Part shown: positions 29,141 to 61,350 of the stretch, in pieces
Layout of the letters: each line of letters opens with the position of its first letter
Numbering within the stretch: the stretch's first letter is position 1
Origin: an uncultured Gammaproteobacteria bacterium
Lineage (GTDB): Bacteria; Patescibacteriota; Patescibacteriia; Magasanikbacterales; GWA2-37-8
Direction: 5' to 3'
Length of the DNA: 64,000 nt
NCBI GenBank assembly: GCA_964596525.1
Contig: CAZQUL010000001.1
Location: forward strand, 460,830 to 524,829
Program-made: the position numbers and the translations under genes
Notes under the pieces: generated by a model
Database searches by the model: none
What the model was told of the DNA's origin: nothing
The model's input: only the letters and a program-made list of their open reading frames with translations

Positions 29141-29240
29141 TTCGTCATTGCGAGCGTAGCGAAGCAATCCCCTGGCAATACAGAGCCGCTCTACTATCAA
29201 GGGGATTGCTTTGTCGCTGCGCTCCTCGCAATGACGGTGC
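29141..29240 (+). repeat. Nested-palindromic intergenic element, copy 1 of the GTCATTGCGAG family
   Basis: tcGTCATTGCGAGcgtagcGAAGCAATCCCC...ctctactatcaaGGGGATTGCTTtg...CTCGCAATGACgg. Starts 5 nt after the stop of the NTase gene. Confidence 0.85.
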
Positions 29241-29352
29241 TCTTAGGAAAGCAAAAAACCAGCTTGGATGAGCTGGTTTTTCCGCTACCTCGTAGCTTCG
29301 TAAAAGACACGAGGTAGGGGGCGAGGGCGACCGAAGTCGCGCCTCGCCGGGG

Positions 29353-29550
29353 TTAACGGCGCACCGTCCGGTAGGTTATGACGCCGAGGAGGAGGGCGAT
29401 GAGAATGGTGGCGGCAAGGCAGAACACCGCCGTGTCACTGAGCGGCACGTGCGGAAATCTCTCAAAATCCTCCGGATGGGTGATGAAGGTTGTGAGGCTG
29501 CCGAAGATGCCGATAAAGAACGCAACCAGGACTGCAGCGATGAATGCCAT
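29353..29550 (-). CDS. Small 2-TM membrane protein (65 aa)
   Basis: GGAGG SD, two hydrophobic helices, and a family promoter upstream. Confidence 0.6.
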   Translation of the reverse strand: MAFIAAVLVAFFIGIFGSLTTFITHPEDFERFPHVPLSDTAVFCLAATILIALLLGVITYRTVRR

Positions 29551-29644
29551 GGTGTGTGCCTCCGAATATTTGGGGAAATGAGCGTATCAAACGCGAAGTT
29601 TTCGCGGCTGGTACGGTCATTCCATCGTGCGTATTTAACAAATA

Positions 29645-29673
29645 ACTATACCATAAAAACGGGGTTTTGTCAA
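29645..29673 (-). promoter_or_regulatory. Promoter cTTGACAaaa-17-TGgTATAGT (minus strand)
   Basis: Reverse complement of actata...tgtcaa; 17-nt spacer with an extended -10 TG. Confidence 0.6.
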
Positions 29674-29695
29674 GCATCTTTAATCGCTAGATATT

Positions 29696-29728
29696 AAAAA
29701 TGCACTCTTTAATAAAGAGTGCATTTTT
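29696..29728. terminator. Bidirectional intrinsic terminator
   Basis: aaaaa-tgcactcttta-a-taaagagtgca-ttttt, a near-perfect 11-bp palindrome. Confidence 0.7.
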
Positions 29729-29829
29729 AGCGCCGTTTCTCGGTAGACTGCTTTTGAAAAGTACTTGGTACTTGGCAAAAGAAGGGGGTCTACCGAGAAG
29801 GGGTGGTAGAAAGGGAGGGTGAAAAGGTG

Positions 29830-30441
29830 CTACTGGGTGGAGAAGGTCAGGAGCGGGCCTGTGGCGAAGGGCTTATCGGAAGGGCTGGACATCAGCGTCC
29901 ACGACCCTCCGGACTGTGTGCGGTACTTGGCGTTGACCAGGTCGACGCGAAGCGTTTCCTGGGCGTATGAGCCGTCATTGAGGCGCAGGTCCCCCATGAC
30001 GAGCCCAAACTCTGCGGTTTCGCCGGGGTACAACCCTACCCCGAAGTTTGTCTCACCGTTGACGAAGTAGCCGCGGCCACCATTCGGATCCCCGGTGTCG
30101 CCGGCAAAAGCGCCGTTCTGTCTCATGATCCTCCGGATCGAGAAGGAGTTCTCGGTCCGCTCGGCCAGGCTGCCGCTCACCTTGTAGATGAGTCCCAGCT
30201 GCACGCCGGGCTTCGCGTCGCACGACGTGGCCGGCGGAATGGTGATGCGTACCGTATTGACCCCGGCCAGGTCGTGGTAGATGACGTCTTTGGTGCCCAG
30301 GGTCTCGACGTGCTCGAGGATGGGCTGGCAGTTCGGGACGCCGGGAGCGATGTAGGTGTCGGTGGTGTCGCTCTCGGGCAGGCCGCAGGCGTTGGTGGTC
30401 AGGGCGAGAAAGGCCAGGGCGAACAGCGAATTCGTGCGCAT
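29830..30441 (-). CDS. Secreted hypothetical protein (203 aa)
   Basis: Signal peptide MRTNSLFALAFLALTTNACG. GGAGG SD. Family promoter upstream. Confidence 0.65.
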   Translation of the reverse strand: MRTNSLFALAFLALTTNACGLPESDTTDTYIAPGVPNCQPILEHVETLGTKDVIYHDLAGVNTVRITIPPATSCDAKPGVQLGLIYKVSGSLAERTENSFSIRRIMRQNGAFAGDTGDPNGGRGYFVNGETNFGVGLYPGETAEFGLVMGDLRLNDGSYAQETLRVDLVNAKYRTQSGGSWTLMSSPSDKPFATGPLLTFSTQ

Positions 30442-30507
30442 GGTCGGTTCCTCCAGGGATGCGGTTTGTCGATGATCCGGCGCTAATCTTAGCGCTTTCT
30501 GTGTATA

Positions 30508-30536
30508 AGTATACCATATTTTGATGCTTTTGTCAA
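30508..30536 (-). promoter_or_regulatory. Promoter cTTGACAaaa-17-TGgTATACT (minus strand)
   Basis: Shares the 15-mer ttttgtcaagatatg with the promoter at 62048..62076. Confidence 0.6.
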
Positions 30537-30574
30537 GATATGCACGCAGTAGTCTAAAACTGGTTTTTGATATG

Positions 30575-30597
30575 AAAAAAGCGGCCGAAAAGGCCGC
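30575..30597 (-). terminator. Intrinsic terminator (gcggcc-gaaaa-ggccgc) with a minus-strand T-run
   Basis: Perfect 6-bp GC stem adjacent to the stop of the 60-aa ORF. Confidence 0.6.
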
Positions 30598-30780
30598 CTA
30601 GCTGCGTCGCCGTACCAGGCGATGGTGAAAGAAGGTGTAGAGGGCAAACAGGGCGGCGAGCGGGTAGCCGATATAGGGAAAAAGCGGATGTGTGATGATG
30701 CCGTCGGAGCGGAGCGTGCCAACGGTGCCGCCCGTAAAGGCGCCGACTAGGAGAGCGGTACAAATCCGGATAAGGAGCAT
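30598..30780 (-). CDS. Small membrane protein (60 aa)
   Basis: Hydrophobic LLIRICTALLVGAFTGG... with a terminator immediately downstream. Confidence 0.5.
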   Translation of the reverse strand: MLLIRICTALLVGAFTGGTVGTLRSDGIITHPLFPYIGYPLAALFALYTFFHHRLVRRRS

Positions 30781-30892
30781 GGTTCAAAACCTCGCGTGGT
30801 TGTGGTTATCGGGAAGCTCGTTTACTATACTGAGACCGCACCAAAAAGAAAAGCCGCGTCGTGAGACGGGCTCTGGTGGCACTTGTGCTTGA

Positions 30893-31210
30893 TCAGGCGG
30901 GGTAGTTCAGGCTGGGTCGCGCGTCGTCGAAGCGGCAGTGCAGCGTCTTGGGTGGGCGACGGCCGGGTCTCTTCGTTAGATCGGTCTCGATGTCCTCGAG
31001 ATCGACGGCATATTTATCTGCGGCCAGTCGATCGTCGAGCCACGAGAAGAAATCGCGCGGGTCTTTGCCTGCATCAACGGCGGGCTGGAGTTCCTCCTTA
31101 TGCCATTCTTCGTACAGCAGGATCTCTCTCCATACGAAAGGCCATTCCCACGGCCGTTCCGGGAGTTCGACGCTCGATGGGTGCGCGAGAGATATTAGGA
31201 AATAGCACAT
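30893..31210 (-). CDS. Hypothetical protein (105 aa)
   Basis: ORF with a weak SD. No recognisable domain. Confidence 0.4.
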   Translation of the reverse strand: MCYFLISLAHPSSVELPERPWEWPFVWREILLYEEWHKEELQPAVDAGKDPRDFFSWLDDRLAADKYAVDLEDIETDLTKRPGRRPPKTLHCRFDDARPSLNYPA

Positions 31211-31282
31211 GTTTTATTTTCCTCGTTTTTGGTTACAGAGCGTATGAAACACGACGAGTAACTAAACAAGGTACCACATAGT

Positions 31283-32617
31283 ATGCTCAAAGTCAAGCCT
31301 ATCATTTTTATTACTATTCCGACTCTCCTAGTCATCTTATTTTTTTCGCTGCCGTGGCAAACACGGTATATTTTTTCATACGGTACCATCGGTGAGTATC
31401 CGGTCGAATGGCTCACGAGGAGCGTGTACGGAACCGAACTGTTGGGATGGTTGATCGTTATCGGTACGATTGTTGTGCATCGGAATCGGTTGTGTAGTTT
31501 GGTGAGGAGCGTCATTCATCAGTGTAGAAATTTGTGGTTGGGCGTGATAAGCGCGTTGAGCGTGGCCGCAGCTTGTTTGTTCAGTTCATCGTTTGGTCTG
31601 AGCGTTTGGTACGTGGCACGTTTTGTTCTCGTAATTGGAATTATTGCGAGCGTGTATTTTTTTTCCGAAAAAAAGGTCTGGTTCTACCGTGCATTTTTTG
31701 CGAGCGGGGTAGTGCAGGGTATCGTGGCGATCATTCAGTTTTTTACGCAGCAAGTGTGGGCTTCGAAGTGGCTCGGTATGGCCGAGCAGCTACCTTCGAC
31801 GCTCGGTACGGCAGTGATCGAGAATGCAGATGGTCGCTGGCTTAGGGCCTATGGTTCGTTCGGCTGGCCGAACGCGCTTGGTATCTATGTGGCGTTTGTT
31901 CTGATTATAGGATTTATCCTCTTGTCGCAATCCCGCCAAACCCGGCATCGTCTGCTGATCGTTGCGGGCGAGATGATCGTTGCAACGGGGCTTTTTCTCT
32001 CGTTTTCGCGCGGGGCATGGGTAGCGGCCGTAGCGGGAGTCGGGTTGTTTTTTATTGTCCGGTGCCGACAAGAATCGTGGCGCTCCGTTGTGCAAAATTA
32101 TGCGGCAGTAAGCGGAGGAATACTTTTAGTATTCATCGGTTTTTTTGTCGTTAACAAGCCGCTGCTCATCACGCGCTTTACGGCTACAAATAGACTCGAA
32201 AGTCGATCGCTCGCGGAGCGATCTAGCCAATATAAAGAGGCGTTTACTTTGTTTAGGAAACACCCGTGGTTTGGTGTCGGGCCGGGAGCGTACATCGTTG
32301 CTTCCCATGACCGATGGTTCACGGTGGCGCCGCAACCGGTACATAACATATTTGTTTTGTTGTTGGTTGAGTGGGGGGCCGTTCCGTTGGTTTGTGCAGT
32401 ATCTGTAATTTTTAAAAAGGCCTGGCCGTACCGAAAAAAAATTGTACACATCCTTCCGTTTATGGCGGTTGGAGTTGTGGCCGGACTCTTCGATCATTGG
32501 CTTGTGAGTTTGTATAGCGGTCTTGTGACGAGTGCTGCAGTAATCGCGTTTATGCTTCTAGAATTAAAAGAGCCTCGCGAAAAACGCGAGGACTCGGGAG
32601 GGGGTGGCTGGCGTTAA
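31283..32617 (+). CDS. O-antigen ligase / Wzy_C-family polytopic membrane protein
   Basis: About 10-12 TM helices. Signature FSRGAW within the periplasmic loop. Confidence 0.72.
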   Translation: MLKVKPIIFITIPTLLVILFFSLPWQTRYIFSYGTIGEYPVEWLTRSVYGTELLGWLIVIGTIVVHRNRLCSLVRSVIHQCRNLWLGVISALSVAAACLFSSSFGLSVWYVARFVLVIGIIASVYFFSEKKVWFYRAFFASGVVQGIVAIIQFFTQQVWASKWLGMAEQLPSTLGTAVIENADGRWLRAYGSFGWPNALGIYVAFVLIIGFILLSQSRQTRHRLLIVAGEMIVATGLFLSFSRGAWVAAVAGVGLFFIVRCRQESWRSVVQNYAAVSGGILLVFIGFFVVNKPLLITRFTATNRLESRSLAERSSQYKEAFTLFRKHPWFGVGPGAYIVASHDRWFTVAPQPVHNIFVLLLVEWGAVPLVCAVSVIFKKAWPYRKKIVHILPFMAVGVVAGLFDHWLVSLYSGLVTSAAVIAFMLLELKEPREKREDSGGGGWR

Positions 32618-32988
32618 GGTGCCGGGCCGCAGAACAGTTCGGCGGTGCGCGGTGGCGGAAGCTTGTCGGGGTTGGAAAAGTTACCGCCGTTGCAGAGATA
32701 GCTCGCTTCGGCGAGCACGCTCTGGCCGCGCCGGCAGCTCAGGTAGCCGCGCTCACTGTCGCTGCTACTTACGCTCGCGGCTGCCCGCACATTATCTTCG
32801 GCGTTTTTGGCGTACAATCGGCAGTCCAGCTTGGCTGATGTGCCGATTGCGATCGCCTGCGGCGAGTCTTCGCCAGCGATGACGGGTGGCAGGAACCAGG
32901 TGAGGCTCGCGGCCACGATGCCGATAGAAAGAGCTTCGGCAAGCTTGAGGTGCGAATGAATCCGGGTAGTGAGTGAGCGGTTGCGCAT
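32614..32988 (-). CDS. Secreted hypothetical protein (124 aa)
   Basis: N-terminal hydrophobic segment. Convergent 4-nt overlap with the ligase-like gene. Confidence 0.45.
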   Translation of the reverse strand: MRNRSLTTRIHSHLKLAEALSIGIVAASLTWFLPPVIAGEDSPQAIAIGTSAKLDCRLYAKNAEDNVRAAASVSSSDSERGYLSCRRGQSVLAEASYLCNGGNFSNPDKLPPPRTAELFCGPAP

Positions 32989-32999
32989 GACTCTCCTTC

Positions 33000-33521
33000 T
33001 TACATTTCCATGGCGATGAACTCAAGATACCGGCTATCGATCCGGTTTTGCACCAGATCGGCATCCGTTGTGCTGAGAGAAATGAACGGGATGCGTCCGT
33101 AGAGCGCTTTCTCGCCGTGCGCTTCAAGCGGAATGCAGAACAGTTCATGCGCAAAGCTCCCTTTGCGGTAGGCGAGTTTGGTTCCCCAGGGGCAGTCAAC
33201 CGCGATCTTGAATGACGGTCCGGCGCCGAACCATTGGATGTATGCTTCGGCGTATTTGAGAGGGCCGTTTGTTCGGAAAATGCGCGAATTGTGCAGGATC
33301 GGCAGTCCGATCGGCGGTTTTTCGGCCAAGGTTCTGGGTGGTGTCACCGTCTGCGCATCCAGATCCTCAGTCGGTACGAATTCCTCGAGCTTGGCAAAGT
33401 CGTGAATTTTGGTGCTAAACGGCTCCACCATGCCAATCGGCAGGGGTGGCAGCGGGCGCTGGGTAGTTACGCACCCGGTCAGCACGGTAAGGCTGAAAAG
33501 AGCGGTTTTCAATCGATACAT
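33000..33521 (-). CDS. Lipoprotein
   Basis: Start at MYRLK has an AAGGAGG SD. Lipobox LTVLTGC. Confidence 0.65.
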   Translation of the reverse strand: MYRLKTALFSLTVLTGCVTTQRPLPPLPIGMVEPFSTKIHDFAKLEEFVPTEDLDAQTVTPPRTLAEKPPIGLPILHNSRIFRTNGPLKYAEAYIQWFGAGPSFKIAVDCPWGTKLAYRKGSFAHELFCIPLEAHGEKALYGRIPFISLSTTDADLVQNRIDSRYLEFIAMEM

Positions 33522-33656
33522 GGGCAGGTACCTCCTTGGGTTAACTAGCATGCTGGCATACTTATGCACAGTTGTCAATATTATGACGGGATAACTGATA
33601 AACGATGGGGATAACGTTATACACAGCAGTGTGGATAAGGCGGGGAAAAGTTTTTC

Positions 33657-33685
33657 TTGACACTATCGCGTGGTTGGTTAGAATG
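33657..33685 (+). promoter_or_regulatory. groESL sigma70 promoter cTTGACA-16-TAGAAT
   Basis: The -35/-10 boxes lie immediately upstream of the CIRCE-like inverted repeat. Confidence 0.7.
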
Positions 33686-33693
33686 GGGATAAA

Positions 33694-33720
33694 TTATCAC
33701 TCGAAATGCATGAGTGATAA
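33694..33720 (+). promoter_or_regulatory. CIRCE-like HrcA operator TTATCACTC-N9-GAGTGATAA
   Basis: 9-bp perfect inverted repeat with a 9-nt spacer. It matches the CIRCE consensus TTAGCACTC-N9-GAGTGCTAA at 7 of 9 positions per arm. Sits between the promoter and groES. Confidence 0.6.
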
Positions 33721-33747
33721 ATCATGGATTGATCTAGTTGTTGGGTA

Positions 33748-33773
33748 TTAGGAATTAGCACTTTAATTCCTAA
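33748..33773 (+). promoter_or_regulatory. Second inverted repeat in the groES leader (ttaggaatta-gcactt-taattcctaa)
   Basis: 10-bp stem. Contains the CIRCE half-site ttagcact. Followed by the tandem taattactaatatc x2. Confidence 0.4.
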
Positions 33774-33805
33774 TTACTAATATCTAATTACTAATATCTA
33801 GGATT

Positions 33806-34096
33806 ATGCCCACCATCCGTCCCTTGGGTAACCGCGCGCTCGTGGAACCCGTCCAGGAAGAAGAAGTAACCTCGTTCGGGATCGTGCTCCCGGAAACCGC
33901 CGGCAAAGAAAAGAAAGGCCAGGGTAAAATTTTGGCCCTTGGTAATGGTGAAGATCTTGCCAAGCTCAACCTCAAGATCGGCGACATGGTCGTCTACGAA
34001 AAGTGGGGTGGCGAGGAAGTGAAGATGGGGAAGGGGAAAGAAGAGAAGGAATATAAAGTGTTGAATCACGATAAGATTTTGGCGGTCGTTGAATAA
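33806..34096 (+). CDS. groES: Co-chaperonin GroES
   Basis: MPTIRPLGNRALVEPVQEEEVTSFGIVLPETAGKEKKGQGKILALG... 96 aa. Confidence 0.95.
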   Translation: MPTIRPLGNRALVEPVQEEEVTSFGIVLPETAGKEKKGQGKILALGNGEDLAKLNLKIGDMVVYEKWGGEEVKMGKGKEEKEYKVLNHDKILAVVE

Positions 34097-34104
34097 CATC
34101 ATGT

Positions 34105-35881
<1,777 letters not shown>

Positions 35882-36015
35882 GGTGTAGGTCGTAGGTGCG
35901 TGGGAAGTAGAATTTAGATATATCTGCGCATTCCGTTTCCAGGTACATCAAAAAGCAGAAAGAGTTCTCGTTGTGAGAGCTCTTTTTGTTTTGTAGTTAG
36001 CGGGTCTCCTAAACA

Positions 36016-36142
36016 CCGTCATTGCGAGGAACGAGGCACGAGCGACGAAGCAATCCCTCGGTAACTCAGAGTCCGCTCTGATATCAAGGGGATTGCTTTC
36101 CCGATCTAATCGGGACGGGCTGTCGTTCCTCCTCGCAATGAC
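36016..36142 (+). repeat. Nested-palindromic element, copy 3, with a 29-bp internal insertion
   Basis: ccGTCATTGCGAGgaacgaggcacgagcgacGAAGCAATCCCtc...ctctgatatcaaGGGGATTGCTTtc[ccgatctaatcgggacgggctgtcgtt]CCTCCTCGCAATGACaa. Confidence 0.85.
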
Positions 36143-36216
36143 AAGCTTTTTGAGTTCGTATGTGCTTCTATTGACGTGATATTATATTTTGGTTTACAAC
36201 CAGGGCGGAGGTAAAC

Positions 36217-36672
36217 ATGAGAAAGAGGTTGGTAGGTATTATGTGTGGTTTGGCTTTGATCGTTACCGTACCGTTCGTACATGCGGTTGCGCCGGAACGA
36301 CTCCCGGCCAACGCGGTAACGTTGGCGTTGACCAAGCCGCCAACTAAGCTGCCAAATTTTTCCGCCGCGGTTGATCGTTGGCCGCAGGAATCGGTGTGGA
36401 AGCTCTGTCCGCCAGGGCATATCATCGCGGCGTATAACGTGGGTCGACAGCGAGTCGATATCCGGGTGGATCGTCCGGCGCCGTCACGGGTATACTTGGC
36501 CTGTGTAGATGATTACACCGGCGTGCTCAATGTCGCCAAAGTTTCGCGCGTGATGTGCCAAGACCGAGAGGCGAACGTATGGGAATACGTGTGGAAGAAT
36601 CGTCCGTCCAAGCGGTCGTGGAGTAAAGAATACGTCTGTTCGGTCGGTAAGCCGCCGCTGGCGGAGTGGTAA
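36217..36672 (+). CDS. Secreted Cys-containing hypothetical protein (151 aa)
   Basis: GGAGG SD. Signal peptide MRKRLVGIMCGLALIVTVPFVHAVA followed by PERLP. Confidence 0.65.
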   Translation: MRKRLVGIMCGLALIVTVPFVHAVAPERLPANAVTLALTKPPTKLPNFSAAVDRWPQESVWKLCPPGHIIAAYNVGRQRVDIRVDRPAPSRVYLACVDDYTGVLNVAKVSRVMCQDREANVWEYVWKNRPSKRSWSKEYVCSVGKPPLAEW

Positions 36673-36767
36673 ATAGGGTTACTCAGTGCTTTATCCCGCG
36701 CTAGTATTGACAAAGTAGCCGAGGCATGTCTTCTTAATATGCGCCACTACAAGGCGAGGTGCCGTAC

Positions 36768-37274: not shown

Positions 37275-37438
37275 TCGACCTGTCGGTTCCAAGCCCTATG
37301 TCCGCATAGGGCTTTTGCAATTTTTAACCTTGTAATTAAGCCATTTTTTACCGAAATGCACTGCTCATATTGACCACCATGCCGTTTATATGGTGTGCTA
37401 ATGCCCAGTTTTCCACCTCTGAAACTGGGAGGTTCGTA

Positions 37439-38071: not shown

Positions 38072-38084
38072 AGGAAAGACCTGT

Positions 38085-38116
38085 GGGTCTGGCATATGCC
38101 AGACCCTTTCGTTTTT
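38085..38116 (+). terminator. Intrinsic terminator (gggtctggca-ta-tgccagaccc followed by TTTCGTTTTT)
   Basis: 10-bp perfect stem plus a T-run. Confidence 0.75.
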
Positions 38117-38160
38117 AAAAATTAAAAAAGCGACATACCCCCGAAGGGATGATGTCGCTT
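38117..38160 (-). terminator. Intrinsic terminator for the POT gene (aagcgacat...atgtcgctt) with a minus-strand T-run
   Basis: 9-bp stem. A-run on top, so T-run on the minus strand. Confidence 0.6.
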
Positions 38161-38181
38161 GTGAGCTTTAAGCTCGTCAGA

Positions 38182-51578: not shown

Positions 51579-51603
51579 CTTAATTCCTTGACGTTCTTTT
51601 CGT

Positions 51604-52113: not shown

Positions 52114-52125
52114 CTTCCTCCATGT

Positions 52126-52902: not shown

Positions 52903-52992
52903 AACCTACACGCCGAAGTCATCGGAAAGGCTGGGATGGAGAGTGAAATTTTTTTCGCACTCCTTCTCAGCATTTCACTTCTTCGGCCGCAT

Positions 52993-53065
52993 GCGCTCAT
53001 AGCTCAGCTGGTAGAGCAGTTGCCTCTTAAGCAAACGGTCGCAGGTTCGAATCCTGCTGGGCGCA
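52993..53065 (+). tRNA. tRNA-Lys (anticodon CTT)
   Basis: GCGCTCATAGCTCAGCTGGTAGAGCAGTTGCCTCTTAAGCAAACGGTCGCAGGTTCGAATCCTGCTGGGCGCA. Cloverleaf with anticodon loop CTCTTAA. Close to the canonical bacterial tRNA-Lys. Confidence 0.9.
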
Positions 53066-53188
53066 CACGAAAAATCCCGTATCCACCATCTCATTTTTAC
53101 GCTTTATCCGACGTGCACTATTGTATAGACAATTCCATCGTTCGGATGGAAAATGAGGTAGAGGATGCGGGATTTTTTGCAACAATTC

Positions 53189-53260
53189 GCTCCCGTAGTT
53201 TAATGGATAAAATGTCAGGCTTCGAACCTGAAGATAGGGGTTCGATTCCCTTCGGGAGCA
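53189..53260 (+). tRNA. tRNA-Arg (anticodon TCG)
   Basis: GCTCCCGTAGTTTAATGGATAAAATGTCAGGCTTCGAACCTGAAGATAGGGGTTCGATTCCCTTCGGGAGCA. Anticodon stem TCAGG/CCTGA, loop CTTCGAA. Confidence 0.85.
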
Positions 53261-53334
53261 CGCGTGGTGGTGGTCGAGACAAAGAGGTGTCTCGACCTCC
53301 GTCGGAAACAAAAATCCACCTGCCTATTTATTTA

Positions 53335-53811
53335 ATGACTAAACGTATGTTCAAAAAAATCGCTACGGCGATCGCTCTATCCTTTGTGTCCATTTTTGGA
53401 ATGGTTACTTTGGTTCAGGCGCAGGCAGTCGCTGTCGACGGCGGCATTGATGCCGGTTACGGGATGATGGAGAATTTTAGAGAAAATGACAGTGTTCGTT
53501 GTTTGGTCGATGGTCAGGCTGTGCCCTGTCCGGAGCTTGGAGGACATGCGCGTTCCTTTATCGGTGCCGGTCTGTTTTTTACTCTCGTCATTGTCGCTCT
53601 CATGGTGTGGGGTTTGGTGTTCTGGATTCTCATGATTGTCCACGCGGTCAAGAATCCGATCGAGAGTAAAGCGCTCTGGATTTTGATCATGCTTCTCACT
53701 GGCATCCTCGGCGCAATCGTGTACTACTTCGCCATCAAGCGGCCGTTTGAAATGGAGAAAGGCAAGAATTCCATCACGCCGCCAAGTGCGCCGGTGAATC
53801 CAGCGCAGTAG
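53335..53811 (+). CDS. Membrane protein with a PLDc_N-like C-terminal domain
   Basis: Signal/TM N-terminus. C-terminal ALWILIMLLTGILGAIVYYFAIKRP resembles the PLD N-terminal small domain. The track ORF's N-terminus runs across the tRNAs and is not supported. Confidence 0.55.
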   Translation: MTKRMFKKIATAIALSFVSIFGMVTLVQAQAVAVDGGIDAGYGMMENFRENDSVRCLVDGQAVPCPELGGHARSFIGAGLFFTLVIVALMVWGLVFWILMIVHAVKNPIESKALWILIMLLTGILGAIVYYFAIKRPFEMEKGKNSITPPSAPVNPAQ

Positions 53812-53835
53812 TAGGTGTGTAGCTCGTTAGCTCGT

Positions 53836-53882
53836 TAGCACGTTAGCGGTAGTTCCTAACGTGCTACAACGCTAACGTGCTA
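53836..53882 (+). promoter_or_regulatory. 13-bp perfect inverted repeat with a mutually exclusive inner 11-bp alternative (tagcacgttagcg...ctaacgtgcta...cgctaacgtgcta)
   Basis: Three gttag direct repeats, then two ctaacgtgcta copies. Ends 14 nt before the THUMP-MTase ATG. Confidence 0.45.
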
Positions 53883-53895
53883 CCAAGCTCCCTTT

Positions 53896-55086: not shown

Positions 55087-55108
55087 CGAGCTGCTAAGGG
55101 CTTCTGCC

Positions 55109-55137
55109 TTGACAAATGCATTTGGTTCTGGTATTTT
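55109..55137 (+). promoter_or_regulatory. Candidate rpsA promoter cTTGACAaat-17-TGgTATTTT
   Basis: Family architecture. A second TATAAT at 55148-55153 is an alternative -10 box. Confidence 0.45.
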
Positions 55138-55225
55138 CCAATCATCGTATAATTCTTTAATTAATGCCCATTCGGGCGCTTGGCGCATCTTTAAATGCGC
55201 AGGTTAAGACAGGATTTTTTTTATT

Positions 55226-56365
55226 ATGACCGATAAAAAGCAGGATTTTAAGGCGCTTTTGGCCGAACATTTCATCAACATCCCTAAAGTAGGTGATGTG
55301 GTGAAAGGCACGGTTCTCTCCGTTTCGCGCAACGAAGTGCATCTCGACATTGCCGGCATGACGACCGGTATCGTCCGTGGTCGCGAACTTTTCATTGAAT
55401 CGCGCGAATACGCCAACATTAAAGTCGGCGACACGGTAGAAGCGACCGTTCTCGAACTCGAAAACGAGAACAATGAAATGGAGCTCTCGTTCCGCATGGC
55501 TGGCTTCCAGAAGGCCTGGGACAACATGAAGAAATGGATGAAGGATGGCCTTACGCTTAAAGGTAAAGTGCTCGCTGCCAACAAAGGCGGTCTTATGATG
55601 CAGGTAGAAGCACTCGAAGCCTTCATGCCTGTTTCTCAGCTCAATCCTGACCACTATCCGCGCGTTGCGGGCGGTGACAAGAACCGCATTCTCGAAAAAC
55701 TCCGCGAACTCGCCAACCAGGAACTCGAAGTGAAAGTCATTGATGTCGACGAAAAAGAAGAGAAACTTATCGTTTCGGAGCGTGCTGTGTGGGAAGATGC
55801 CCAGAAGGCCGTGCTCGAATCGTATAAAGTCGGTGACGTGGTGAATGGCGAAATCAGCGCCCTCACCTCGTTTGGTGCTTTCATGAAGTTTGGTGAAGGT
55901 CTCGAAGGTCTTATCCATATCTCCGAGATCGCCTGGCAGCGCATCGATCATCCCAAAGACGTGCTCAAAATCGGTGATAAGGTGAAAGCTCAGATCATCC
56001 AGCTCGACCATTCCAAGATTTACCTCTCCATCAAACGCCTCATCGACGATCCGTGGAAAACGGTCCGCGACCGTTACCAAGAAGGTGCTAAAGTGAACGG
56101 CAAGATTATCAAGATCGAACCGTTCGGCCTCATGGTGAGCCTTGACCGTGACATCCATGGTTTGGCCCACATCTCGGAACTTTCCGATGAGCCGATCACC
56201 AACATGAACGAGAAGTTCAAGATCGGTCAGGAAATGGAATTCGAAATCATGTCGATTGAACCGAACGAACATCGCCTTGGCCTCAAAGTCGCTGGTGTGA
56301 AAGGCAAGAGCGGTCGCCGTCCGCGCCGTGATGCCAAAGAAGAAGCTCCGGCTCAGACCGCCTAA
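55226..56365 (+). CDS. rpsA: 30S ribosomal protein S1 (short four-S1-domain form)
   Basis: Repeated S1 domains (VGDVVKGTV..., VGDTVEATV..., VGDVVNGEI..., GAKVNGKII...). 379 aa. Confidence 0.88.
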   Translation: MTDKKQDFKALLAEHFINIPKVGDVVKGTVLSVSRNEVHLDIAGMTTGIVRGRELFIESREYANIKVGDTVEATVLELENENNEMELSFRMAGFQKAWDNMKKWMKDGLTLKGKVLAANKGGLMMQVEALEAFMPVSQLNPDHYPRVAGGDKNRILEKLRELANQELEVKVIDVDEKEEKLIVSERAVWEDAQKAVLESYKVGDVVNGEISALTSFGAFMKFGEGLEGLIHISEIAWQRIDHPKDVLKIGDKVKAQIIQLDHSKIYLSIKRLIDDPWKTVRDRYQEGAKVNGKIIKIEPFGLMVSLDRDIHGLAHISELSDEPITNMNEKFKIGQEMEFEIMSIEPNEHRLGLKVAGVKGKSGRRPRRDAKEEAPAQTA

Positions 56366-56538
56366 TACAACTTGAATCTTATCCACACGAAAGCCTTTAC
56401 AACGGTTTTTCGGAGGGTAAAATTATCTCAAAGCCATCTCGTTCCCAGCGGGGTGGCTTTGCATTTCGGCTCGGGGCAGGTACCTCCTGCCTGCCCTGGG
56501 TTCGACTGCTTTACTTGCATAACCAAGGAGGTGCTTCC

Positions 56539-56613
56539 ATGCCGCGTTTCGTCAACGCCTTGTGGTACACTGTGTACTACAGTGTATCGAGCCTACGCTC
56601 GTCATCGTTTTAA
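56539..56613 (+). CDS. Candidate 24-codon upstream ORF MPRFVNALWYTVYYSVSSLRSSSF (leader peptide?)
   Basis: AAGGAGG lies 7 nt upstream. Contains the 8-bp palindrome tacactgt/acagtgta. Ends 14 nt before a second AAGGAG SD and the lipoprotein ATG. Confidence 0.35.
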   Translation: MPRFVNALWYTVYYSVSSLRSSSF

Positions 56614-56627
56614 CCAAGGAGATCCCT

Positions 56628-57266
56628 ATGACCATCACGCGTCTTTTCGCCTCGTTGTTTACCGTGTGTGCTTTTGGCGCCCTGGTTCTTGGTGCTGGCT
56701 GTTCCAAAACGCCGACGCCGGGAACCAAGAAACCGATTCCGACCTACACCCAAAAAAGGGTGATTGATCGGGTGGATTGGCCAGCGTCGTCGACCATTAA
56801 TCATGCGGCGCTCGCGGCCATGAAGCCGGAGGAGCGGGCTAAGGTGGCGTTGTCCGGGGTACCGGTTTTGGTGCCGGGGGATGTGAAGCTTCTGGCTGGT
56901 GGTGTCATGATCGAGCCGAATGAGTCCGGGTATGATTTTGGTTCTATCGGCACCGTTGATGGGCTGGATTTTACGATCGGCGCGACGAGGGTAAGCACCC
57001 AGTCCGACGCTCCGGTGCCAGCATACGCACGTGATCCTCAGCGACCTGACAATCGTGCGGTGGTTGGTAACCGCAAGCTGAGTATTGGCCGAATCACCGG
57101 AGATGGTAACGAAGGACCCTGGTCTGCCAGTTGGACCGAAAGCGGTGAAGCGGGGTACACCCTTCTTCTTGAATGCGTTGATGTGAGCGATGCTCGTTGC
57201 AAGGACGATAGTTATCTTAAATCCTTTGTAGCAAGTCTCGTTTATGTTGGCGGAAGCGGTAAGTAG
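56628..57266 (+). CDS. Putative lipoprotein (213 aa)
   Basis: Start at MTITRLF. Signal peptide with LVLGAGCS lipobox-like cysteine. Confidence 0.65.
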   Translation: MTITRLFASLFTVCAFGALVLGAGCSKTPTPGTKKPIPTYTQKRVIDRVDWPASSTINHAALAAMKPEERAKVALSGVPVLVPGDVKLLAGGVMIEPNESGYDFGSIGTVDGLDFTIGATRVSTQSDAPVPAYARDPQRPDNRAVVGNRKLSIGRITGDGNEGPWSASWTESGEAGYTLLLECVDVSDARCKDDSYLKSFVASLVYVGGSGK

Positions 57267-57292
57267 TCTCAAAGAAAAAACAGGAGGTTGTC

Positions 57293-59170
57293 ATGCGTCA
57301 TAAGCTTGCCCTGCTTGCGTTGGTAGGTGCCCTGGTTACGGACTTGGGTGTGGTAAAAGCTCAAACTGAGCCCTTTACCTATTTCCCACCCGGCCATCTC
57401 ATAAAAGAGTCTGGGGCATTCGATCTTAGTACTGGGGTGGAAGATTACGAAGTTCATGCCCCCGACATGCTCTTCCCTCTCAAGGTTACTGCCTTTGCCA
57501 ACTCGCAATTGTTCAGCCCGGGAGGAAGTGAGTATAAGGGGGGTGATGCCACTAAGGGATGGTGGGCCAACCCTCGCAATTTCCGTTATCCCTGGCGTGA
57601 TAACTTTTGCGAATGGCGCGATGATAAGAATCACTGGGTCGAACCTTGTCCTACTCAGTGGGCCCATCAAGGTCAGGATATTCGTGCTCTAACAAAAGAC
57701 AATAAGTTATACGCTGTCGTCGCGGCAGAAGATGCTGTCGTGTGGTGGGCAAGTTCAAAATCGGGTGGAATTGTTTTGCAAACACTCGATCGGGAACGGT
57801 TGTATATGTACCTCCATATGTCGACGACTAAGGTGGTCGACGACAAAGTCGCACAGACTGTCTCTTTGCAGAAGAAGCAGCGGGTGGTTAAAGGTCAGGT
57901 GATCGGTTTCGTTTCCCAAGTCGCCTCTGAGCCTACTAGCGTCCACCTCCATTTTGAGCTCCACAAAAGAAAACGTGGTGCTGATGGCAAGCTTGTGGAT
58001 GCCTGGAGTGCTTACACGCGTGTTTCCCCCTACCTCTCCCTCATCCGCGCCTACGAACGTTTCTTCGGGTCCGAAGGAACGATGCTCGACGCACCCGCCG
58101 TCTGTACGCCCAGTACGTCCCGCTGTGCGCCGCGTGATGAAACCTTCGAAAAAAATACCTACAAGCACTCTGCCCTCATCACCTGCTCCGCCGACGGTAC
58201 CTCCGAAACCCTGTCCTGGTGCCCGGGTGCGACGTGCGGTTCGGCGCAGAGCTGTGGTCCGTCCACCGCTCCGTCTCCGCCACCGCGCGACATGAGTATG
58301 GGTGTGCCCGACATGAGCGCTCCAGAACCTGACCATCCCCGCTACTGCTTCGGCTTTCCACCGCCGCGGATAACGTGGAAGCCCAAGACCTCGTTCGGCC
58401 ATCGTGATGGCTACACCAAGATGCTTGCATACCAAGGTGCAGTGCATGCTGTCGGTACAGACACGACCATGCACGGTCATCGGGTTTACGATCCGGTGCG
58501 TGACGTATGGGACAAAGCGACGTTCATTCCGTACTCCAATCCGGCGTACGCCATCGTTGTTGCCGATGACACGCTGTATATCCCAGCGGCCGTACTGCAG
58601 CCGGTGATGCAGCGCTATTACCCGCTCTCCGATACCTGGGGAACGTTCGGTATGCCCGGGTTCAGCAGTATGCTGCCGCAGTTTCCGGTGGTTGCTGATG
58701 GAACCGCAATCTATCTCCTTAACGGATACGATATGGCGGCGTATAACCTGGCCACCAACACCTGGAAAAACCTAACCGTCATCGACCAGGGACTGGTGGA
58801 TAGCGCTGCCGTGTATAAGGGACAGCTGTTCGTGTTCGGGAGCGAACGGACCTACTATCAAGGTATGGTCCACCGGTTTGATCTTGTGTCTGGCTCCTGG
58901 ATTCAGCTTGCCGGTGTACCGGATAAAATCTGGACTTCGGCCGCGGTACACATAGGGGATACGGTCTGGCGTTTTGGCGGTCTTAAGCCGCGTGGTACCA
59001 TGACCGAACCGGTAAACAGCATCGCGCTTTTCCATCTGCCGACCGGGCAGTGGTGCACCGGTACCGCGTTTCTGCCGGACTGGATGGCTAAGCCTCTTGT
59101 AGCCTTTGCCCGTGGCCGGCTCTACGTGGTGGATGATGACGGCGATTTTTGGGAAGGTACCCCCAACTGA
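57293..59170 (+). CDS. Secreted M23/LytM-family metallopeptidase fused to a C-terminal Kelch-like beta-propeller
   Basis: AGGAGG SD. Signal peptide. HQGQDIRA (HxGxD) and VHLHFELH (HxH) M23 motifs. C-terminal repeats with W and GG spacing typical of Kelch blades. Confidence 0.72.
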   Translation: MRHKLALLALVGALVTDLGVVKAQTEPFTYFPPGHLIKESGAFDLSTGVEDYEVHAPDMLFPLKVTAFANSQLFSPGGSEYKGGDATKGWWANPRNFRYPWRDNFCEWRDDKNHWVEPCPTQWAHQGQDIRALTKDNKLYAVVAAEDAVVWWASSKSGGIVLQTLDRERLYMYLHMSTTKVVDDKVAQTVSLQKKQRVVKGQVIGFVSQVASEPTSVHLHFELHKRKRGADGKLVDAWSAYTRVSPYLSLIRAYERFFGSEGTMLDAPAVCTPSTSRCAPRDETFEKNTYKHSALITCSADGTSETLSWCPGATCGSAQSCGPSTAPSPPPRDMSMGVPDMSAPEPDHPRYCFGFPPPRITWKPKTSFGHRDGYTKMLAYQGAVHAVGTDTTMHGHRVYDPVRDVWDKATFIPYSNPAYAIVVADDTLYIPAAVLQPVMQRYYPLSDTWGTFGMPGFSSMLPQFPVVADGTAIYLLNGYDMAAYNLATNTWKNLTVIDQGLVDSAAVYKGQLFVFGSERTYYQGMVHRFDLVSGSWIQLAGVPDKIWTSAAVHIGDTVWRFGGLKPRGTMTEPVNSIALFHLPTGQWCTGTAFLPDWMAKPLVAFARGRLYVVDDDGDFWEGTPN

Positions 59171-59301
59171 TTTTTCGTAAAAAACCGTGTTTTTAAGCTA
59201 GGCTTACCGAGCCTTGCTTTTTTTAAACAGGGCCTATAGTATACGGAAACGTATTTTGGTTCGGCTCGTAGTGGGCCTTTTGGAGTATTTAGTTTATTTG
59301 T

Positions 59302-61146
59302 ATGCGTGATTTTATCAAGAATTTTGCCATTATTTTCGTTGCGCTTGTTGCAGTTGCTTTTGGCCTTAGCATGCTGAATAGCTACCGCACGACCAAGAAA
59401 CCTGAGTCCGTCGGTATTGCCCGGGTGGTGGAAGAGATCAACGCCGGAGCTGTAGAAAAGATCACTGTCCAAGGCGATGCTATTACTGTTCTTCTCAAAG
59501 ACGATAATGCCCGCGAACAGGTGGCCAAAAAAGAGTACGGCGAATCGTTCGGTGACGTGATGAAAAATTACGGCGTCTCCGAAACTGCCCTTGCGGAACT
59601 GCGCAAGAACAACGCTATCGAAATCAAAGACGAAAGCAGCTGGAAATTTTGGGTTGCTAATCTGGTGCCGGCACTCATTCCACTCATCGCTATCATGGTG
59701 TTCATCTACCTCATGAGCCGGAGCGCCCAGGGCGTTAACAACCGCGCGCTTGGTTTTGGTCAGAGTAATCCGCGCCAGATGGACCCCGAAAGTAAAGACA
59801 AGAAAACCTTCGCCGACGTGGCCGGTGCCAAAGAGGCAAAAGAAGAATTGGTTGAAATCGTCGACTTCCTCAAGAATCCCAAACGCTTCGCCGATATGGG
59901 CGCGAAGATCCCCAAAGGCGTTCTTCTCACCGGTTCGCCGGGTACGGGTAAAACGCTTTTGGCCAAAGCTGTTGCCGGTGAAGCTGATGTGCCGTTCTTC
60001 CACATGAGCGGTTCGGAATTCGTTGAGATGTTTGTTGGTGTGGGTGCTTCACGCGTGCGTGATTTGTTCAACAAAGCTAAGAAAGCTGCTCCAGCCATTG
60101 TCTTCATCGATGAAATTGATGCGGTGGGTCGCCGCCGCGGCGCGGGTTTGGGCGGTGGACACGATGAACGCGAACAGACGCTCAACCAGATCCTTGTTGA
60201 AATGGATGGGTTTGAACCCAATTCGGGCGTCATCATCATGGCGGCCACCAACCGTCCGGATGTGCTCGACCCGGCACTACTTCGCCCCGGCCGCTTCGAT
60301 CGTCGTGTCACGATCGATATGCCCGACATTAAAGACCGCGAAGAAATCCTCAATGTCCATGCCAAAGGCAAACCGCTCGCCGCTTCGGTGTCGCTGCGCA
60401 AAATCGCCGAGCGTACCCCGGGTTTTTCGGGTGCGGATCTCTCAAACCTCCTCAATGAAGCGGCCATCCTCGCGGTGCGCAAAAACATGAAAGAAGTCAC
60501 TGAAAACGAAATTTTGCCGAGTATCGAAAAAGTACTCCTTGGACCAGAGCGCAAGAGCCGCGTTATTTCCGATCATGATAAAAAAGTCACGGCCTACCAC
60601 GAAGCTGGCCATGCCATCGTCGGGTATCTCCTCAAGCATTCCGATCCGGTGCGCAAGGTGTCTATCATCTCGCGCGGGTCGGCTGGCGGTTACACGCTCA
60701 AGATGCCAAACGAAGACAAGCATTATGTTACCCTTGCCGCCTTCCGCGATGACTTGGCCATGGCCATGGGTGGTTACGTAGCCGAGAAAATGATCTTCGG
60801 CGAGGATATGATTTCTACCGGCCCCTCAAGCGATCTGCGCAACGCCACCAAGCTCGCCCGCAACATGGTGACGCAGTACGGCATGAGCACCAAACTCGGT
60901 GCCCGTACCTTCGGACAGCATGACGAGATGATTTTCCTCGGCCGTGAAATCCACGAAGAGCGCGACTACTCCGACAAGACCGCTGAAGAAATCGATGCCG
61001 AAATCAAAGCCCTTCTCACCGAGGCACAAGACCGTGCTCGTGAAGTGCTCACCACCAACCGCGAAAAAATGGAACGCATGGTCGCTGTTCTCATCGAAAA
61101 AGAAACTATCGAAGAAGCAGACATTAAAGCGATCATGGCCGCGTAA
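59302..61146 (+). CDS. ftsH: ATP-dependent zinc metalloprotease FtsH
   Basis: N-terminal TM helices. AAA Walker [12 protein letters not shown]. Zn site HEAGHAIV. Confidence 0.96.
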
Positions 61147-61174
61147 AAAAATAGAAGAAAGAGTCTGTTACGTA

Positions 61175-61350
61175 CCGTCATTGCGAGCGCAGCGAAGCAA
61201 TCCCTCAGTGCTTCGGAGCTCGCTCTGATATCAAGGAGATTGCCCGCCCGGCACGCCGTGCTGCCATGGCGGACGGGCTTCGTCGGTTGCCTCCTCGCAA
61301 TGACGAGTTCTCGGGACGACCTCGTCCCGGCCGAGGCGCAATGACAACAA
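61175..61350 (+). repeat. Nested-palindromic element, copy 4, a compound copy with a 34-bp palindromic insertion and a duplicated 3' arm
   Basis: ccGTCATTGCGAGcgcagcGAAGCAATCCCtc...ctctgatatcaaGGaGATTGC[ccgcccggcacgccgtgctgccatggcggacggg]CTTCGtcg...CCTCCTCGCAATGACgag ... cgggacgacctcgtcccg ... cGCAATGACaac. Confidence 0.8.

What the first reader, a model, noticed from the sequence alone, without database searches (positions are those of the whole stretch)
29141..61350. Family of ~100-130 bp nested-palindromic intergenic elements (GTCATTGCGAG / GAAGCAATCCC arms), 4 same-orientation copies
Copies lie at 29141-29240, 34105-34204, 36016-36142 and 61175-61350. Each has outer 11-bp inverted arms GTCATTGCGAG/CTCGCAATGAC and inner 12-13-bp arms GAAGCAATCCC/GGGGATTGCTTCG. 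The ~30-nt central loop is semi-conserved (cagag.ccgctct.atatcaagggg). Every copy starts 5-135 nt after the stop codon of a plus-strand gene (NTase, groES, groEL, ftsH), and all are in the same orientation. Copies 3 and 4 carry internal insertions that are themselves small palindromes, which looks like MITE-like growth. The elements translate into spurious overlapping ORFs (VIASVAKQSPG... / GDCFVAALLAMT...), so they are easily mis-annotated as proteins. Possible roles: a 3'-UTR stabiliser or attenuator RNA structure, a REP-like element, or a non-autonomous mobile element.
Basis: seen in the sequence. Interest (0 to 1): 0.65.

Follow-up and report, generated by a model that had tools for sequence, protein, structure and literature searches.

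The report
CGTC-tagged REP-like palindrome dimers
Four hairpin-forming repeats after groES, groEL, ftsH and one unnamed gene in a small candidate-phyla-radiation genome are inverted pairs of a short repeat unit found across about ten bacterial phyla; this is a REP-type repeat, and how it spreads is still unknown.

Summary
The window holds exactly eight copies of one unit, arranged as four inverted pairs at 29144-29235, 34105-34203, 36018-36142 and 61177-61304.

The unit reads (C/T)GTC-ATTGC-GA-[variable G…C-closed apex]-GAA-GCAAT-CC(A/C). It is not private to this genome. By record title the hosts span about ten phyla.

Across the family:
- The tag is C or T before GTC in 97% of units, and the tail is CCA in 71%.
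- Pairs with tags outside predominate (60 of 71 adjacent pairs).
- There is no target-site duplication.
- Divergent promoter regions are under-represented.
- No transposase recurs nearby.

This matches the CGTC-tagged REP superfamily of Di Nocera et al. 2013, but the body (an interrupted stem and a variable apex) matches none of its four families as far as I could reconstruct them.

Related Magasanikbacteria-like contigs show presence/absence differences at the same intergenic sites.

Best reading: REPIN-like, non-autonomous palindromic repeats, with possible side effects on mRNA. "Nested MITE growth" is better explained as the family's variable apex. It is a new variant of a known kind, of moderate interest.

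The parts
29143..29236 (+). Dimer 1: two inverted units with tags outside, 8 nt after the stop of the unnamed gene 28219-29136 and before a terminator-like hairpin with a T-run at about 29259-29285
   Evidence: (-52.2 kcal/mol, z -6.8)
29144..29170 (+). Unit 1L, short type: GTCATTGCGAG-CGTAG-CGAAGCAATCC, preceded by the tag base C
29203..29235 (-). Unit 1R, GAGC..GCGA type: GTCATTGCGAG-GAGCGCAGCGA-CAAAGCAATCC
34104..34204 (+). Dimer 2, inside the groES-groEL spacer: 9 nt after the groES stop and 34 nt before the groEL ATG at 34238
   Evidence: (-46.2 kcal/mol, z -7.5)
34105..34131 (+). Unit 2L, short type (apex CGCAG), with tag T (TGTC)
34165..34203 (-). Unit 2R, with a 17-nt purine-rich apex AAGGGAGGAACGACCGA
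36017..36143 (+). Dimer 3: 137 nt after the groEL stop and downstream of a terminator-like hairpin with a T-run at about 35953-35990
   Evidence: -63.4 kcal/mol, z -6.6
36018..36056 (+). Unit 3L, with a 17-nt purine-rich apex GAACGAGGCACGAGCGA
36090..36142 (-). Unit 3R, with a long apex that includes the hairpin CCCGAT-TAG-ATCGGG
61176..61305 (+). Dimer 4: 31 nt after the ftsH stop and before a hairpin with T-runs on both sides at about 61380-61415, shared with the convergent gene 61440-62057
   Evidence: (-63.1 kcal/mol, z -4.6)
61177..61203 (+). Unit 4L, short type (apex CGCAG)
61235..61304 (-). Unit 4R, with an apex of about 50 nt that is itself a hairpin and a degenerate tail (GGCAATCTCC)
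61335..61345 (-). Partial ninth head, GTCATTGCGCC, preceded by a small hairpin; probably a remnant of a third unit

Best explanation
The four elements are inverted pairs of one short palindromic repeat unit: (C/T)GTC tag, ATTGC, GA, a variable apex closed by G…C, GAA, GCAAT, and a CC(A/C) tail. The tags face outward, which Di Nocera et al. call 'head-head' dimers.

Shown: this is a REP/REPIN-type repeat family that is very widely distributed, differs in presence between related genomes, leaves no target-site duplication, and has no transposase linked in cis.

Inferred: the dimer is copied to new intergenic sites through a folded single-stranded intermediate, by an enzyme supplied in trans that is not yet identified. 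The purine-rich strand of each unit would fold using ATTGC/GCAAT, tandem G·A pairs and a d(GCGNAGC)-type mini-hairpin or a Watson-Crick apex.

Inferred, not tested: once inserted after a gene, the -46 to -63 kcal/mol hairpin is transcribed in at least copies 1, 2 and 4, and may protect the upstream mRNA or affect processing.
For: Repeat and fold:
- establish the repeat and its folding.

Unit architecture and spread:
- Isolates as well as MAGs carry it, including Bradyrhizobium, Sphingomonas, Pedobacter, Hymenobacter and Helicobacter rodentium.
- Plasmids of Novosphingobium, Methylosinus, Methylobacterium, Aulosira and Legionella also carry it.

Tag, tail and arrangement:
- In 327 non-redundant units, C or T precedes GTC in 97% and A follows AATCC in 71%.
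- Adjacent pairs are 60 with tags outside, 9 tandem and 2 with tags inside. The spacer mode is 21-25 nt.
- No TSD beyond shuffled expectation was found in 202 dimers.

Genomic context:
- Divergent intergenic regions are depleted: 10 of 85 against 252 of 1175, p=0.037.
- The median distance is 21.5 nt from the upstream stop and 67.5 nt to the next start.

Apex structure:
- 41% of 245 apex variants are significantly self-complementary. A further 43 apex variants (of 285 in all) are of the GAGC-N-GCGA tandem-G·A type.

Presence/absence among relatives:
- The groES-groEL spacer is filled in the window and in L364, and is an empty 35-nt spacer in L121.
- The site downstream of groEL is filled only in the window.
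- The site after the rRNA adenine dimethylase gene (Pfam RrnaAD) is filled only in L363.

The published description of CGTC-tagged REPs fits on tag, AT start, CCA tail, head-head heterodimers, position downstream of ORFs and lack of a transposase (PMC3733652).
Against: - No mobilising enzyme was found. No transposase or nuclease family recurs near units in about 360 loci. The rest of this genome could not be read.
- Alphaproteobacteria, the richest hosts, have few Y1 transposases (PMC6006769).
- Nearest-neighbour DNA folding of the short unit alone gives only -2.7 kcal/mol, with z about 0. The unit fold for short types therefore rests on non-canonical G·A and mini-hairpin chemistry known from the literature (PMC13037366), not on a computation done here.
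- The four window copies are diverged, so there is no sign of a recent burst.
- Flanks in relatives are too diverged to define an exact empty site.
- All six copies in this CPR lineage have the spacer in the same orientation relative to the upstream gene. Three of the four window copies adjoin proteostasis genes. Both points hint at a strand-specific or RNA-level role.
- G·T against A·C mismatches in apex stems number 9:3, which is not significant.
Confidence: 0.6

Rival explanations
1. A selected cis-acting RNA element. The hairpin in the 3' UTR or between cistrons stabilises upstream mRNA, directs processing between groES and groEL, or attenuates read-through. It would have been recruited specifically at chaperone and protease genes.
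For: - Copies 1, 2 and 4 lie between a stop codon and either the next start or a terminator-like hairpin, so they are probably transcribed.
- Three of the four follow groES, groEL or ftsH.
- L364 also has a dimer in the groES-groEL spacer.
- Six of six lineage copies share orientation with the upstream gene.
- Two of the four window copies have G·U pairs on the + strand in the inner arms.
- REPs are reported to act as RNA elements (PMC3733652).
Against: - The closest relative, L121 (GroEL 90%), has a bare 35-nt groES-groEL spacer and no copy in 21.6 kb.
- Copy 3 lies after the terminator-like hairpin of groEL.
- Family-wide, neighbours are unrelated genes (SDR, ABC, amidase, phage structural genes).
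- Orientation relative to transcription is 19:20.
- No Rfam family matches, even at E up to 10.
- The L363 and L364 loci were chosen around groEL, so the groESL association in relatives is biased.
Confidence: 0.2
2. A classical MITE: a deletion derivative of a DDE-type insertion sequence with terminal inverted repeats, moved by cut-and-paste.
For: The element has 11-bp perfect terminal inverted repeats, a size of about 95-130 bp and an intergenic position.
Against: - There is no target-site duplication.
- The 'TIRs' are parts of a unit that also occurs singly or in tandem.
- No IS or transposase with these ends was found in about 360 loci.
Confidence: 0.04
3. A host-factor or single-strand DNA signal. 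The units would serve as structured ssDNA sites, for example for priming, SSB exclusion, or binding by gyrase or a nucleoid protein, and would be kept for chromosome function.
For: - The commonest apex, GC-GNA-GC, equals the d(GCGNAGC) mini-hairpin. That hairpin is very stable as DNA, much less stable as RNA, binds SSB poorly, and occurs at phage and plasmid single-strand initiation sites (PMC13037366).
- The core sequence is strictly conserved across phyla.
Against: - Copy number and positions differ between close relatives.
- Many genomes lack the family, which is unlike an essential signal.
- Di Nocera et al. argue on the same grounds against a general chromosomal role.
- Nothing here tests binding.
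Confidence: 0.08
4. Intrinsic transcription terminators.
For: The elements are stable GC-containing hairpins after genes. Copy 3 is followed by CTTTTTG.
Against: - Copies 1, 2 and 4 have no T-run after the hairpin.
- Copies 1, 3 and 4 each have a separate terminator-like hairpin next to them.
- The terminator scan reports none of the elements.
- Copy 2 sits inside the groESL operon.
Confidence: 0.03

Closest known systems
CGTC-tagged REPs (families CGTC-1 to CGTC-4) of Di Nocera, De Gregorio & Rocco 2013, BMC Genomics 14:522 (PMC3733652). These include Neisseria dRS3 and Rickettsia RPE-4 and RPE-6.
   Same: - An unpaired 5' tag, CGTC or TGTC.
- A stem that begins with AT.
- A CCA tail.
- Mostly 'head-head' dimers with tags outside, often heterodimers, with spacers of 20-100 nt that have complementary ends.
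- A position mostly downstream of ORFs.
- Occurrence in many phyla.
- No associated transposase.
   Different: - The published families have a continuous 8-9-bp stem and a 4-5-nt loop.
- This unit has a 5-bp stem, a conserved GA/GAA purine internal loop, then a G…C-closed apex of 3 to about 60 nt.
- I reconstructed the four published bodies from REP-encoded peptides and from a Novosphingobium plasmid: ATTCCCGC-GAAA-GCGGGAAT, AYYCTGAA-CNTGT-TTCAGRRT, ATCCCCGG-CTTGA-…, and ATTCCGTGG-CTTGA-CCACGGAAT. None is ATTGCGAG…GAAGCAAT.
- Patescibacteria are not among the five phyla listed in the paper.
REPINs mobilised by RAYT / TnpA(REP) Y1 transposases (Bertels & Rainey 2011, PMC3116915; Ton-Hoang et al.; Messing et al. 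2012, PMC3479197)
   Same: - Two inverted REP units plus a spacer form one long hairpin that behaves as the replicating unit.
- There is no TSD.
- An unpaired tetranucleotide sits next to the hairpin foot.
   Different: - The tag is CGTC, not GTAG.
- No RAYT or Y1 gene flanked by units was found in any locus.
- The main host groups are poor in Y1 transposases.
E. coli REP/BIME (GTAG-3)
   Same: - Imperfect palindromes with unpaired purines between the stem and a variable, partly self-complementary apex.
- Pairs in alternating orientation after genes.
- Known effects on mRNA stability.
   Different: The sequence and tag differ. E. coli REPs are confined to enterobacteria, whereas this unit keeps 22 fixed bases across phyla.
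MITEs (for example Correia, ERIC, Coxiella QMITE)
   Same: Small, intergenic, with terminal inverted repeats, hairpin-forming when transcribed, and able to create spurious ORFs.
   Different: MITEs make target-site duplications and derive from an IS. Neither is seen here.
Mini-hairpin DNA d(GCGNAGC)/d(GCGNNAGC) (Hirao and co-workers; review PMC13037366)
   Same: The commonest unit apex is exactly GC-GNA-GC, with N = A, C, G or T. CGTC-1 appears to carry GCGAAAGC at its apex, by back-translation of VIPAKAGI.
   Different: The mini-hairpin is a structural motif, not a repeat family. Its presence here is read from the sequence, and its folding in this context was not tested.

Membership tests
CGTC-tagged REP superfamily (PMC3733652) | Unpaired terminal tag CGTC (variants TGTC, CCTC) | tested here: met
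   Window: six CGTC and two TGTC tags. Family: C 69% and T 27% before GTC in 327 units.
CGTC-tagged REP superfamily (PMC3733652) | Stem begins with complementary A-T pairs at positions 1 and 2 | tested here: met
   ATTGC…GCAAT is present in all units by the search pattern, and in all eight window units.
CGTC-tagged REP superfamily (PMC3733652) | Continuous stem of 8-9 bp | tested here: not met
   There are only 5 Watson-Crick pairs, then GA opposite GAA, then 2 or more pairs. The DNA fold gives (((((.. ((…)) …))))) at -2.7 kcal/mol.
CGTC-tagged REP superfamily (PMC3733652) | Loop of 4-5 nt, of a few sequence types | tested here: not met
   The apex ranges from a 3-nt GNA loop to about 60 nt, with 285 distinct variable cores.
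CGTC-tagged REP superfamily (PMC3733652) | Short unpaired 3' tail fitting CCA | tested here: met
   CCA in 71% and CCC in 22% of units family-wide. The window subfamily has CCC.
CGTC-tagged REP superfamily (PMC3733652) | Predominantly head-head dimers (tags outside); tail-tail rare and head-tail negligible | tested here: met
   60 with tags outside, 2 with tags inside and 9 tandem. All four window elements have tags outside.
CGTC-tagged REP superfamily (PMC3733652) | Body sequence equals one of CGTC-1 to CGTC-4 | tested here: not met
   Figure 2 of the paper was not readable. Bodies were inferred from peptides in Additional file 3 and from pNL2, and none matches. No listed peptide contains HCE, LAMT, ARND or VIAS.
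REPIN-RAYT system | A RAYT (Y1/HUH transposase) gene flanked by the same REPs in the genome | tested here: inconclusive
   None recurs within 1.5-2.5 kb of units in about 360 loci. The 20 window proteins scanned include no transposase or HUH hit. The other 1.28 Mb of this genome could not be fetched.
REPIN-RAYT system | GTAG tetranucleotide at the REP foot | tested here: not met
   The tag is YGTC.
MITE | Target-site duplication flanking the terminal inverted repeats | tested here: not met
   The observed TSD length distribution equals the shuffled one in 202 dimers. The window flanks show none.
Intrinsic terminator | GC-rich hairpin followed directly by a U-tract | tested here: not met
   Copies 1, 2 and 4 have no T-run, and the scan does not report the elements.
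Any Rfam 15 family | Covariance-model match | tested here: not met
   Only tRNAs pass the gathering threshold. Over the three copies in the stretch scanned at E up to 10 (29000-36400; copy 4 lies outside it), only weak chance-level matches overlap an element (SAH, 22 bits against a 37-bit cutoff; mir-1743, 19.8 against 100).

The most novel reading that the evidence does not exclude
The ATTGCGAG…GAAGCAAT unit would be a fifth, structurally distinct branch of the CGTC-type repeats. Its purine-rich strand would fold as single-stranded DNA through a d(GCGNAGC) mini-hairpin stacked on tandem G·A pairs. A conserved, still unidentified enzyme would recognise and copy it. That enzyme would have to be present even in 1.3-Mb CPR genomes and in Rickettsiales, so it would be either a new kind of mobilising enzyme or a housekeeping ssDNA enzyme used for this purpose. 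This would explain why 22 bases stay fixed across about ten phyla without any linked transposase.
Probability: 0.15. Interest if true: 0.75.

Novelty: new variant of a known kind. Interest (0 to 1): 0.45.

Why it matters
CGTC-type palindromic repeats are widespread, but no enzyme that moves them is known; the 2013 survey left this question open.

This finding adds three things:
- It places such repeats in Patescibacteria, a phylum with very small genomes.
- It shows they differ in presence between related lineages there.
- It defines a very widely distributed unit whose conserved purine internal loop and mini-hairpin apex point to recognition of one folded strand.

Small genomes that still gain and lose copies give a short list of candidate enzymes to test.

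On the practical side, the elements generate open reading frames (VIASxAKQS…, …DCFxxLLAMT) and strong hairpins. These can mislead gene callers, assemblers and searches for RNA motifs.

Tried and rejected
- **Fetching the source genome.** Exact GroEL look-ups failed three times, so no genome-wide census or transposase search was possible.
- **Literature search by literal DNA and peptide strings.** It found only primer coincidences.
- **Rfam.** Nothing at gathering thresholds or at E up to 10.
- **Guilt by association for a mobilising enzyme.**
  - In IMG/VR loci the recurrent families are portal, terminase, capsid and tail proteins. These reflect how that collection is chosen.
  - In genome and metagenome loci they are SDR, ABC, glycosyltransferase, amidase and the like.
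  - I rejected all of these as candidates.
- **Search for the window's spacer motif in about 360 foreign loci.** None was found, so the spacer is lineage-specific.
- **Base-precise comparison of empty and filled sites with relatives.** The flanks are too diverged.
- **G·T against A·C asymmetry to separate single-strand from duplex selection.** The count was 9:3, not significant.
- **Nearest-neighbour folding of single short units.** No better than shuffles.
- **GC skew.** There is no clear switch in the window, so it gives no information on a replication-strand bias.
- **Considered and dropped on sequence grounds:** integron attC sites, CRISPR repeats, dif sites, and CIRCE. A CIRCE-like operator does exist, but it lies upstream of groES and is unrelated.
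- **PMC186582 (Rickettsia RPE families).** The paper is not held, so a match to another RPE class could not be checked.

Full report
**1. Observation**

The 11-mer GTCATTGCGAG occurs eight times without mismatch, four on each strand. About 1.5 matches are expected allowing one mismatch, and no shuffle reached eight. GAAGCAATCCC occurs seven times against 1.6 expected.

The eight heads bound four elements at 29144-29235, 34105-34203, 36018-36142 and 61177-61304. A looser scan (two mismatches per half-site) finds no other unit.

Each element folds into one long hairpin on either strand. On the + strand the energies are -46 to -63 kcal/mol with z -4.6 to -7.5.

Of the upstream genes, groES and ftsH are confirmed by Pfam and groEL by homology.

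**2. Anatomy**

The 'outer' and 'inner' arms are the two halves of one unit: GTCATTGCGAG-[variable]-CGAAGCAATCC. Each element is two such units in inverted orientation around a spacer of about 30 nt.

The unit reads as a hairpin:
- ATTGC pairs with GCAAT.
- A conserved GA lies opposite GAA.
- A G…C pair closes a variable apex.

The commonest apexes give GC-GNA-GC, with GAA, GCA, GGA and GTA all seen. A second class is GAGC-N-GCGA, that is, two more G·A oppositions plus GC/GC; 43 of the 285 distinct apex variants belong to it. In 41% of the 245 variants of 7 nt or more, the apex is a significantly self-complementary Watson-Crick hairpin of unrelated sequence.

The extra sequence in copies 3 and 4 lies exactly at this apex position. 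It therefore reflects the family's normal variability and is not evidence for nested transposition.

One caution applies. Nearest-neighbour DNA folding of the short unit alone gives the expected shape but only -2.7 kcal/mol, no better than shuffles. The claim that short units fold rests on published chemistry, not on my computation: d(GCGNAGC) mini-hairpins are very stable as DNA and much less stable as RNA (PMC13037366).

**3. Distribution**

By record title, the hosts include:
- many Alphaproteobacteria (Bradyrhizobium, sphingomonads, Micavibrio, Rickettsiales);
- Gammaproteobacteria and 'delta' proteobacteria;
- Bacteroidota (Pedobacter, Hymenobacter, Chryseobacterium, Rikenella);
- Chloroflexi, Helicobacter rodentium, Zixibacteria, Melainabacteria, Armatimonadetes and Spirochaetes, among others.

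Plasmids of Novosphingobium (at least 40 places in one megaplasmid), Methylosinus, Methylocystis, Methylobacterium, Aulosira, Halomonas and Legionella also carry it. Both dimers and single units occur.

The window itself comes from a Patescibacteria (Magasanikbacteria-like) genome. The 100% GroEL match lies on a 1.34-Mb contig.

**4. Family-wide statistics**

- In 327 non-redundant units from the unbiased scans, the base before GTC is C (69%) or T (27%), and the base after AATCC is A (71%) or C (22%).
- Adjacent units are arranged with tags outside 60 times, in tandem 9 times, and with tags inside twice. The spacer mode is 21-25 nt.
- In 202 non-redundant dimers, the length distribution of flanking direct repeats equals the shuffled expectation, so there is no target-site duplication.
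- Of 85 dimers that could be classified, 52 lie between co-directional genes, 23 between convergent genes and 10 between divergent genes. The background is 706, 217 and 252 (chi-square p=0.036; divergent depletion p=0.037).
- The dimers sit closer to the upstream stop (median 21.5 nt) than to the next start (67.5 nt).
- The short/long unit asymmetry shows no orientation bias relative to transcription (19:20).

**5. Relatives**

I compared contigs representing three related genomes, with GroEL 86-90% identical to the window.

- L121 (90%) has a bare 35-nt groES-groEL spacer and no unit in 21.6 kb.
- L364 (86%) has a dimer in the groES-groEL spacer, with a related spacer sequence but different apexes.
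- L363 (87%) has a different palindrome in that spacer. It carries a dimer after the rRNA adenine dimethylase gene (Pfam RrnaAD), where L121 and L364 have 66-74-nt gaps.
- The site downstream of groEL is filled only in the window.

These are gains or losses at several sites, which fits a mobile or at least unstable element. The flanks are too diverged to define exact empty sites.

All six copies in this lineage have the spacer in the same orientation as the upstream gene. This is suggestive, but the sample is small and partly biased, because the relatives' loci were centred on groEL.

**6. Search for a mobilising enzyme**

I clustered ORFs within 1.5-2.5 kb of units across about 360 loci. In IMG/VR contigs only phage or GTA-type structural genes recur. 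This reflects how that collection is chosen. In genomes and metagenomes the recurring families are common metabolic and transport ones. None of the 20 window proteins I scanned is a transposase or HUH enzyme.

**7. Comparison with what is known**

No Rfam family matches, and literal-sequence searches of the paper library find nothing relevant.

The design matches the CGTC-tagged REP superfamily of Di Nocera et al. 2013 on these points:
- a CGTC or TGTC tag;
- a stem starting with AT;
- a CCA tail;
- mostly head-head dimers with tags outside, often heterodimers;
- spacers of 20-100 nt;
- a position downstream of ORFs;
- occurrence in several phyla;
- no dedicated transposase.

Two defining features are not met: a continuous 8-9-bp stem and a 4-5-nt loop.

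The paper's consensus figure was not readable. I reconstructed the four family bodies from the REP-encoded peptides in its Additional file 3 and from two CGTC-2-type repeats on Novosphingobium aromaticivorans pNL2. None is ATTGCGAG…GAAGCAAT. I therefore treat this as a further, atypical branch of that superfamily and not as a member of a listed family.

**8. Mechanism**

Shown:
- a REP-type repeat;
- a dimer as the repeated module in this genome;
- no TSD;
- variable presence among relatives;
- no cis-linked transposase.

Inferred:
- copying through a folded single strand by an unknown enzyme acting in trans, by analogy with REPIN/RAYT and IS200/IS605 biology;
- strand specificity of the purine-rich fold.

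Possible but untested: effects on the mRNA of groES, groEL, ftsH and the unnamed gene. Copies 1 and 4 lie between a stop codon and a terminator-like hairpin. Copy 2 lies inside the groESL operon. Copy 3 lies beyond a terminator-like hairpin.

**9. Verdict**

This is a new variant of a known kind. Interest is moderate. The element class is known, but three things bear on the open question of how CGTC-type repeats spread: the phylum, the breadth of exact conservation, and the atypical purine-loop and mini-hairpin body.

Noticed in passing
window 33657-33721: A promoter-like TTGACA-16-TAGAAT is followed by TTATCACTC-N9-GAGTGATAA upstream of groES. This is a CIRCE-like inverted repeat (consensus TTAGCACTC-N9-GAGTGCTAA, from memory), which would suggest HrcA control of groESL.
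   Followed up: no
window 34104-34204, 36017-36143, 61176-61305: Three of the four dimers adjoin proteostasis genes (groES, groEL, ftsH). By contrast rpoB, rpoC, gyrA, uvrD-like and nusA in the same window have none. This may be chance or an expression-linked preference.
   Followed up: partly
L363 9887-10000: In the relative with GroEL 87% identical, the groES-groEL spacer holds a different long palindrome (…ggaaggcttggaaagctggggaggctagg…cctagcctcc…) in place of the CGTC-type dimer. The spacer seems to be occupied repeatedly by hairpin elements.
   Followed up: no
L248, L258, L260, L265, L290, L342 (metagenome contigs): Dimers occur in close tandem arrays on some contigs, for example three copies about 100 nt apart in L290 and repeated copies in L342 and the OGCI01… contigs. 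This is unlike the dispersed copies in the window.
   Followed up: no
L366 13567 (+) and 13688 (-) (Novosphingobium aromaticivorans pNL2): A pair of different CGTC-type repeats, CGTC-ATGCTGAA-CATGT-TTCAGCAT-CCA and CGTC-ACCCTGAA-CCTGT-TTCAGGGT-CCA, lies on the same plasmid as one ATTGCGAG-type dimer. Two families therefore coexist there.
   Followed up: partly
L001-L120 (IMG/VR): Many 'viral' contigs carrying the unit encode portal, terminase, capsid, tail-tube and DUF2460-type proteins. This resembles alphaproteobacterial prophage or gene-transfer-agent clusters, so the repeats also sit inside such regions.
   Followed up: partly
window 29250-29356 (-): A weak Rfam match to RNAI (34.2 bits against a cutoff of 47, E=0.0017) overlaps the terminator-like hairpin just after dimer 1. 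It is probably chance.
   Followed up: no
window 52936-53811 (+): A 291-aa ORF overlaps two tRNA genes (52993-53065 and 53189-53260), so it is probably not a real gene.
   Followed up: no
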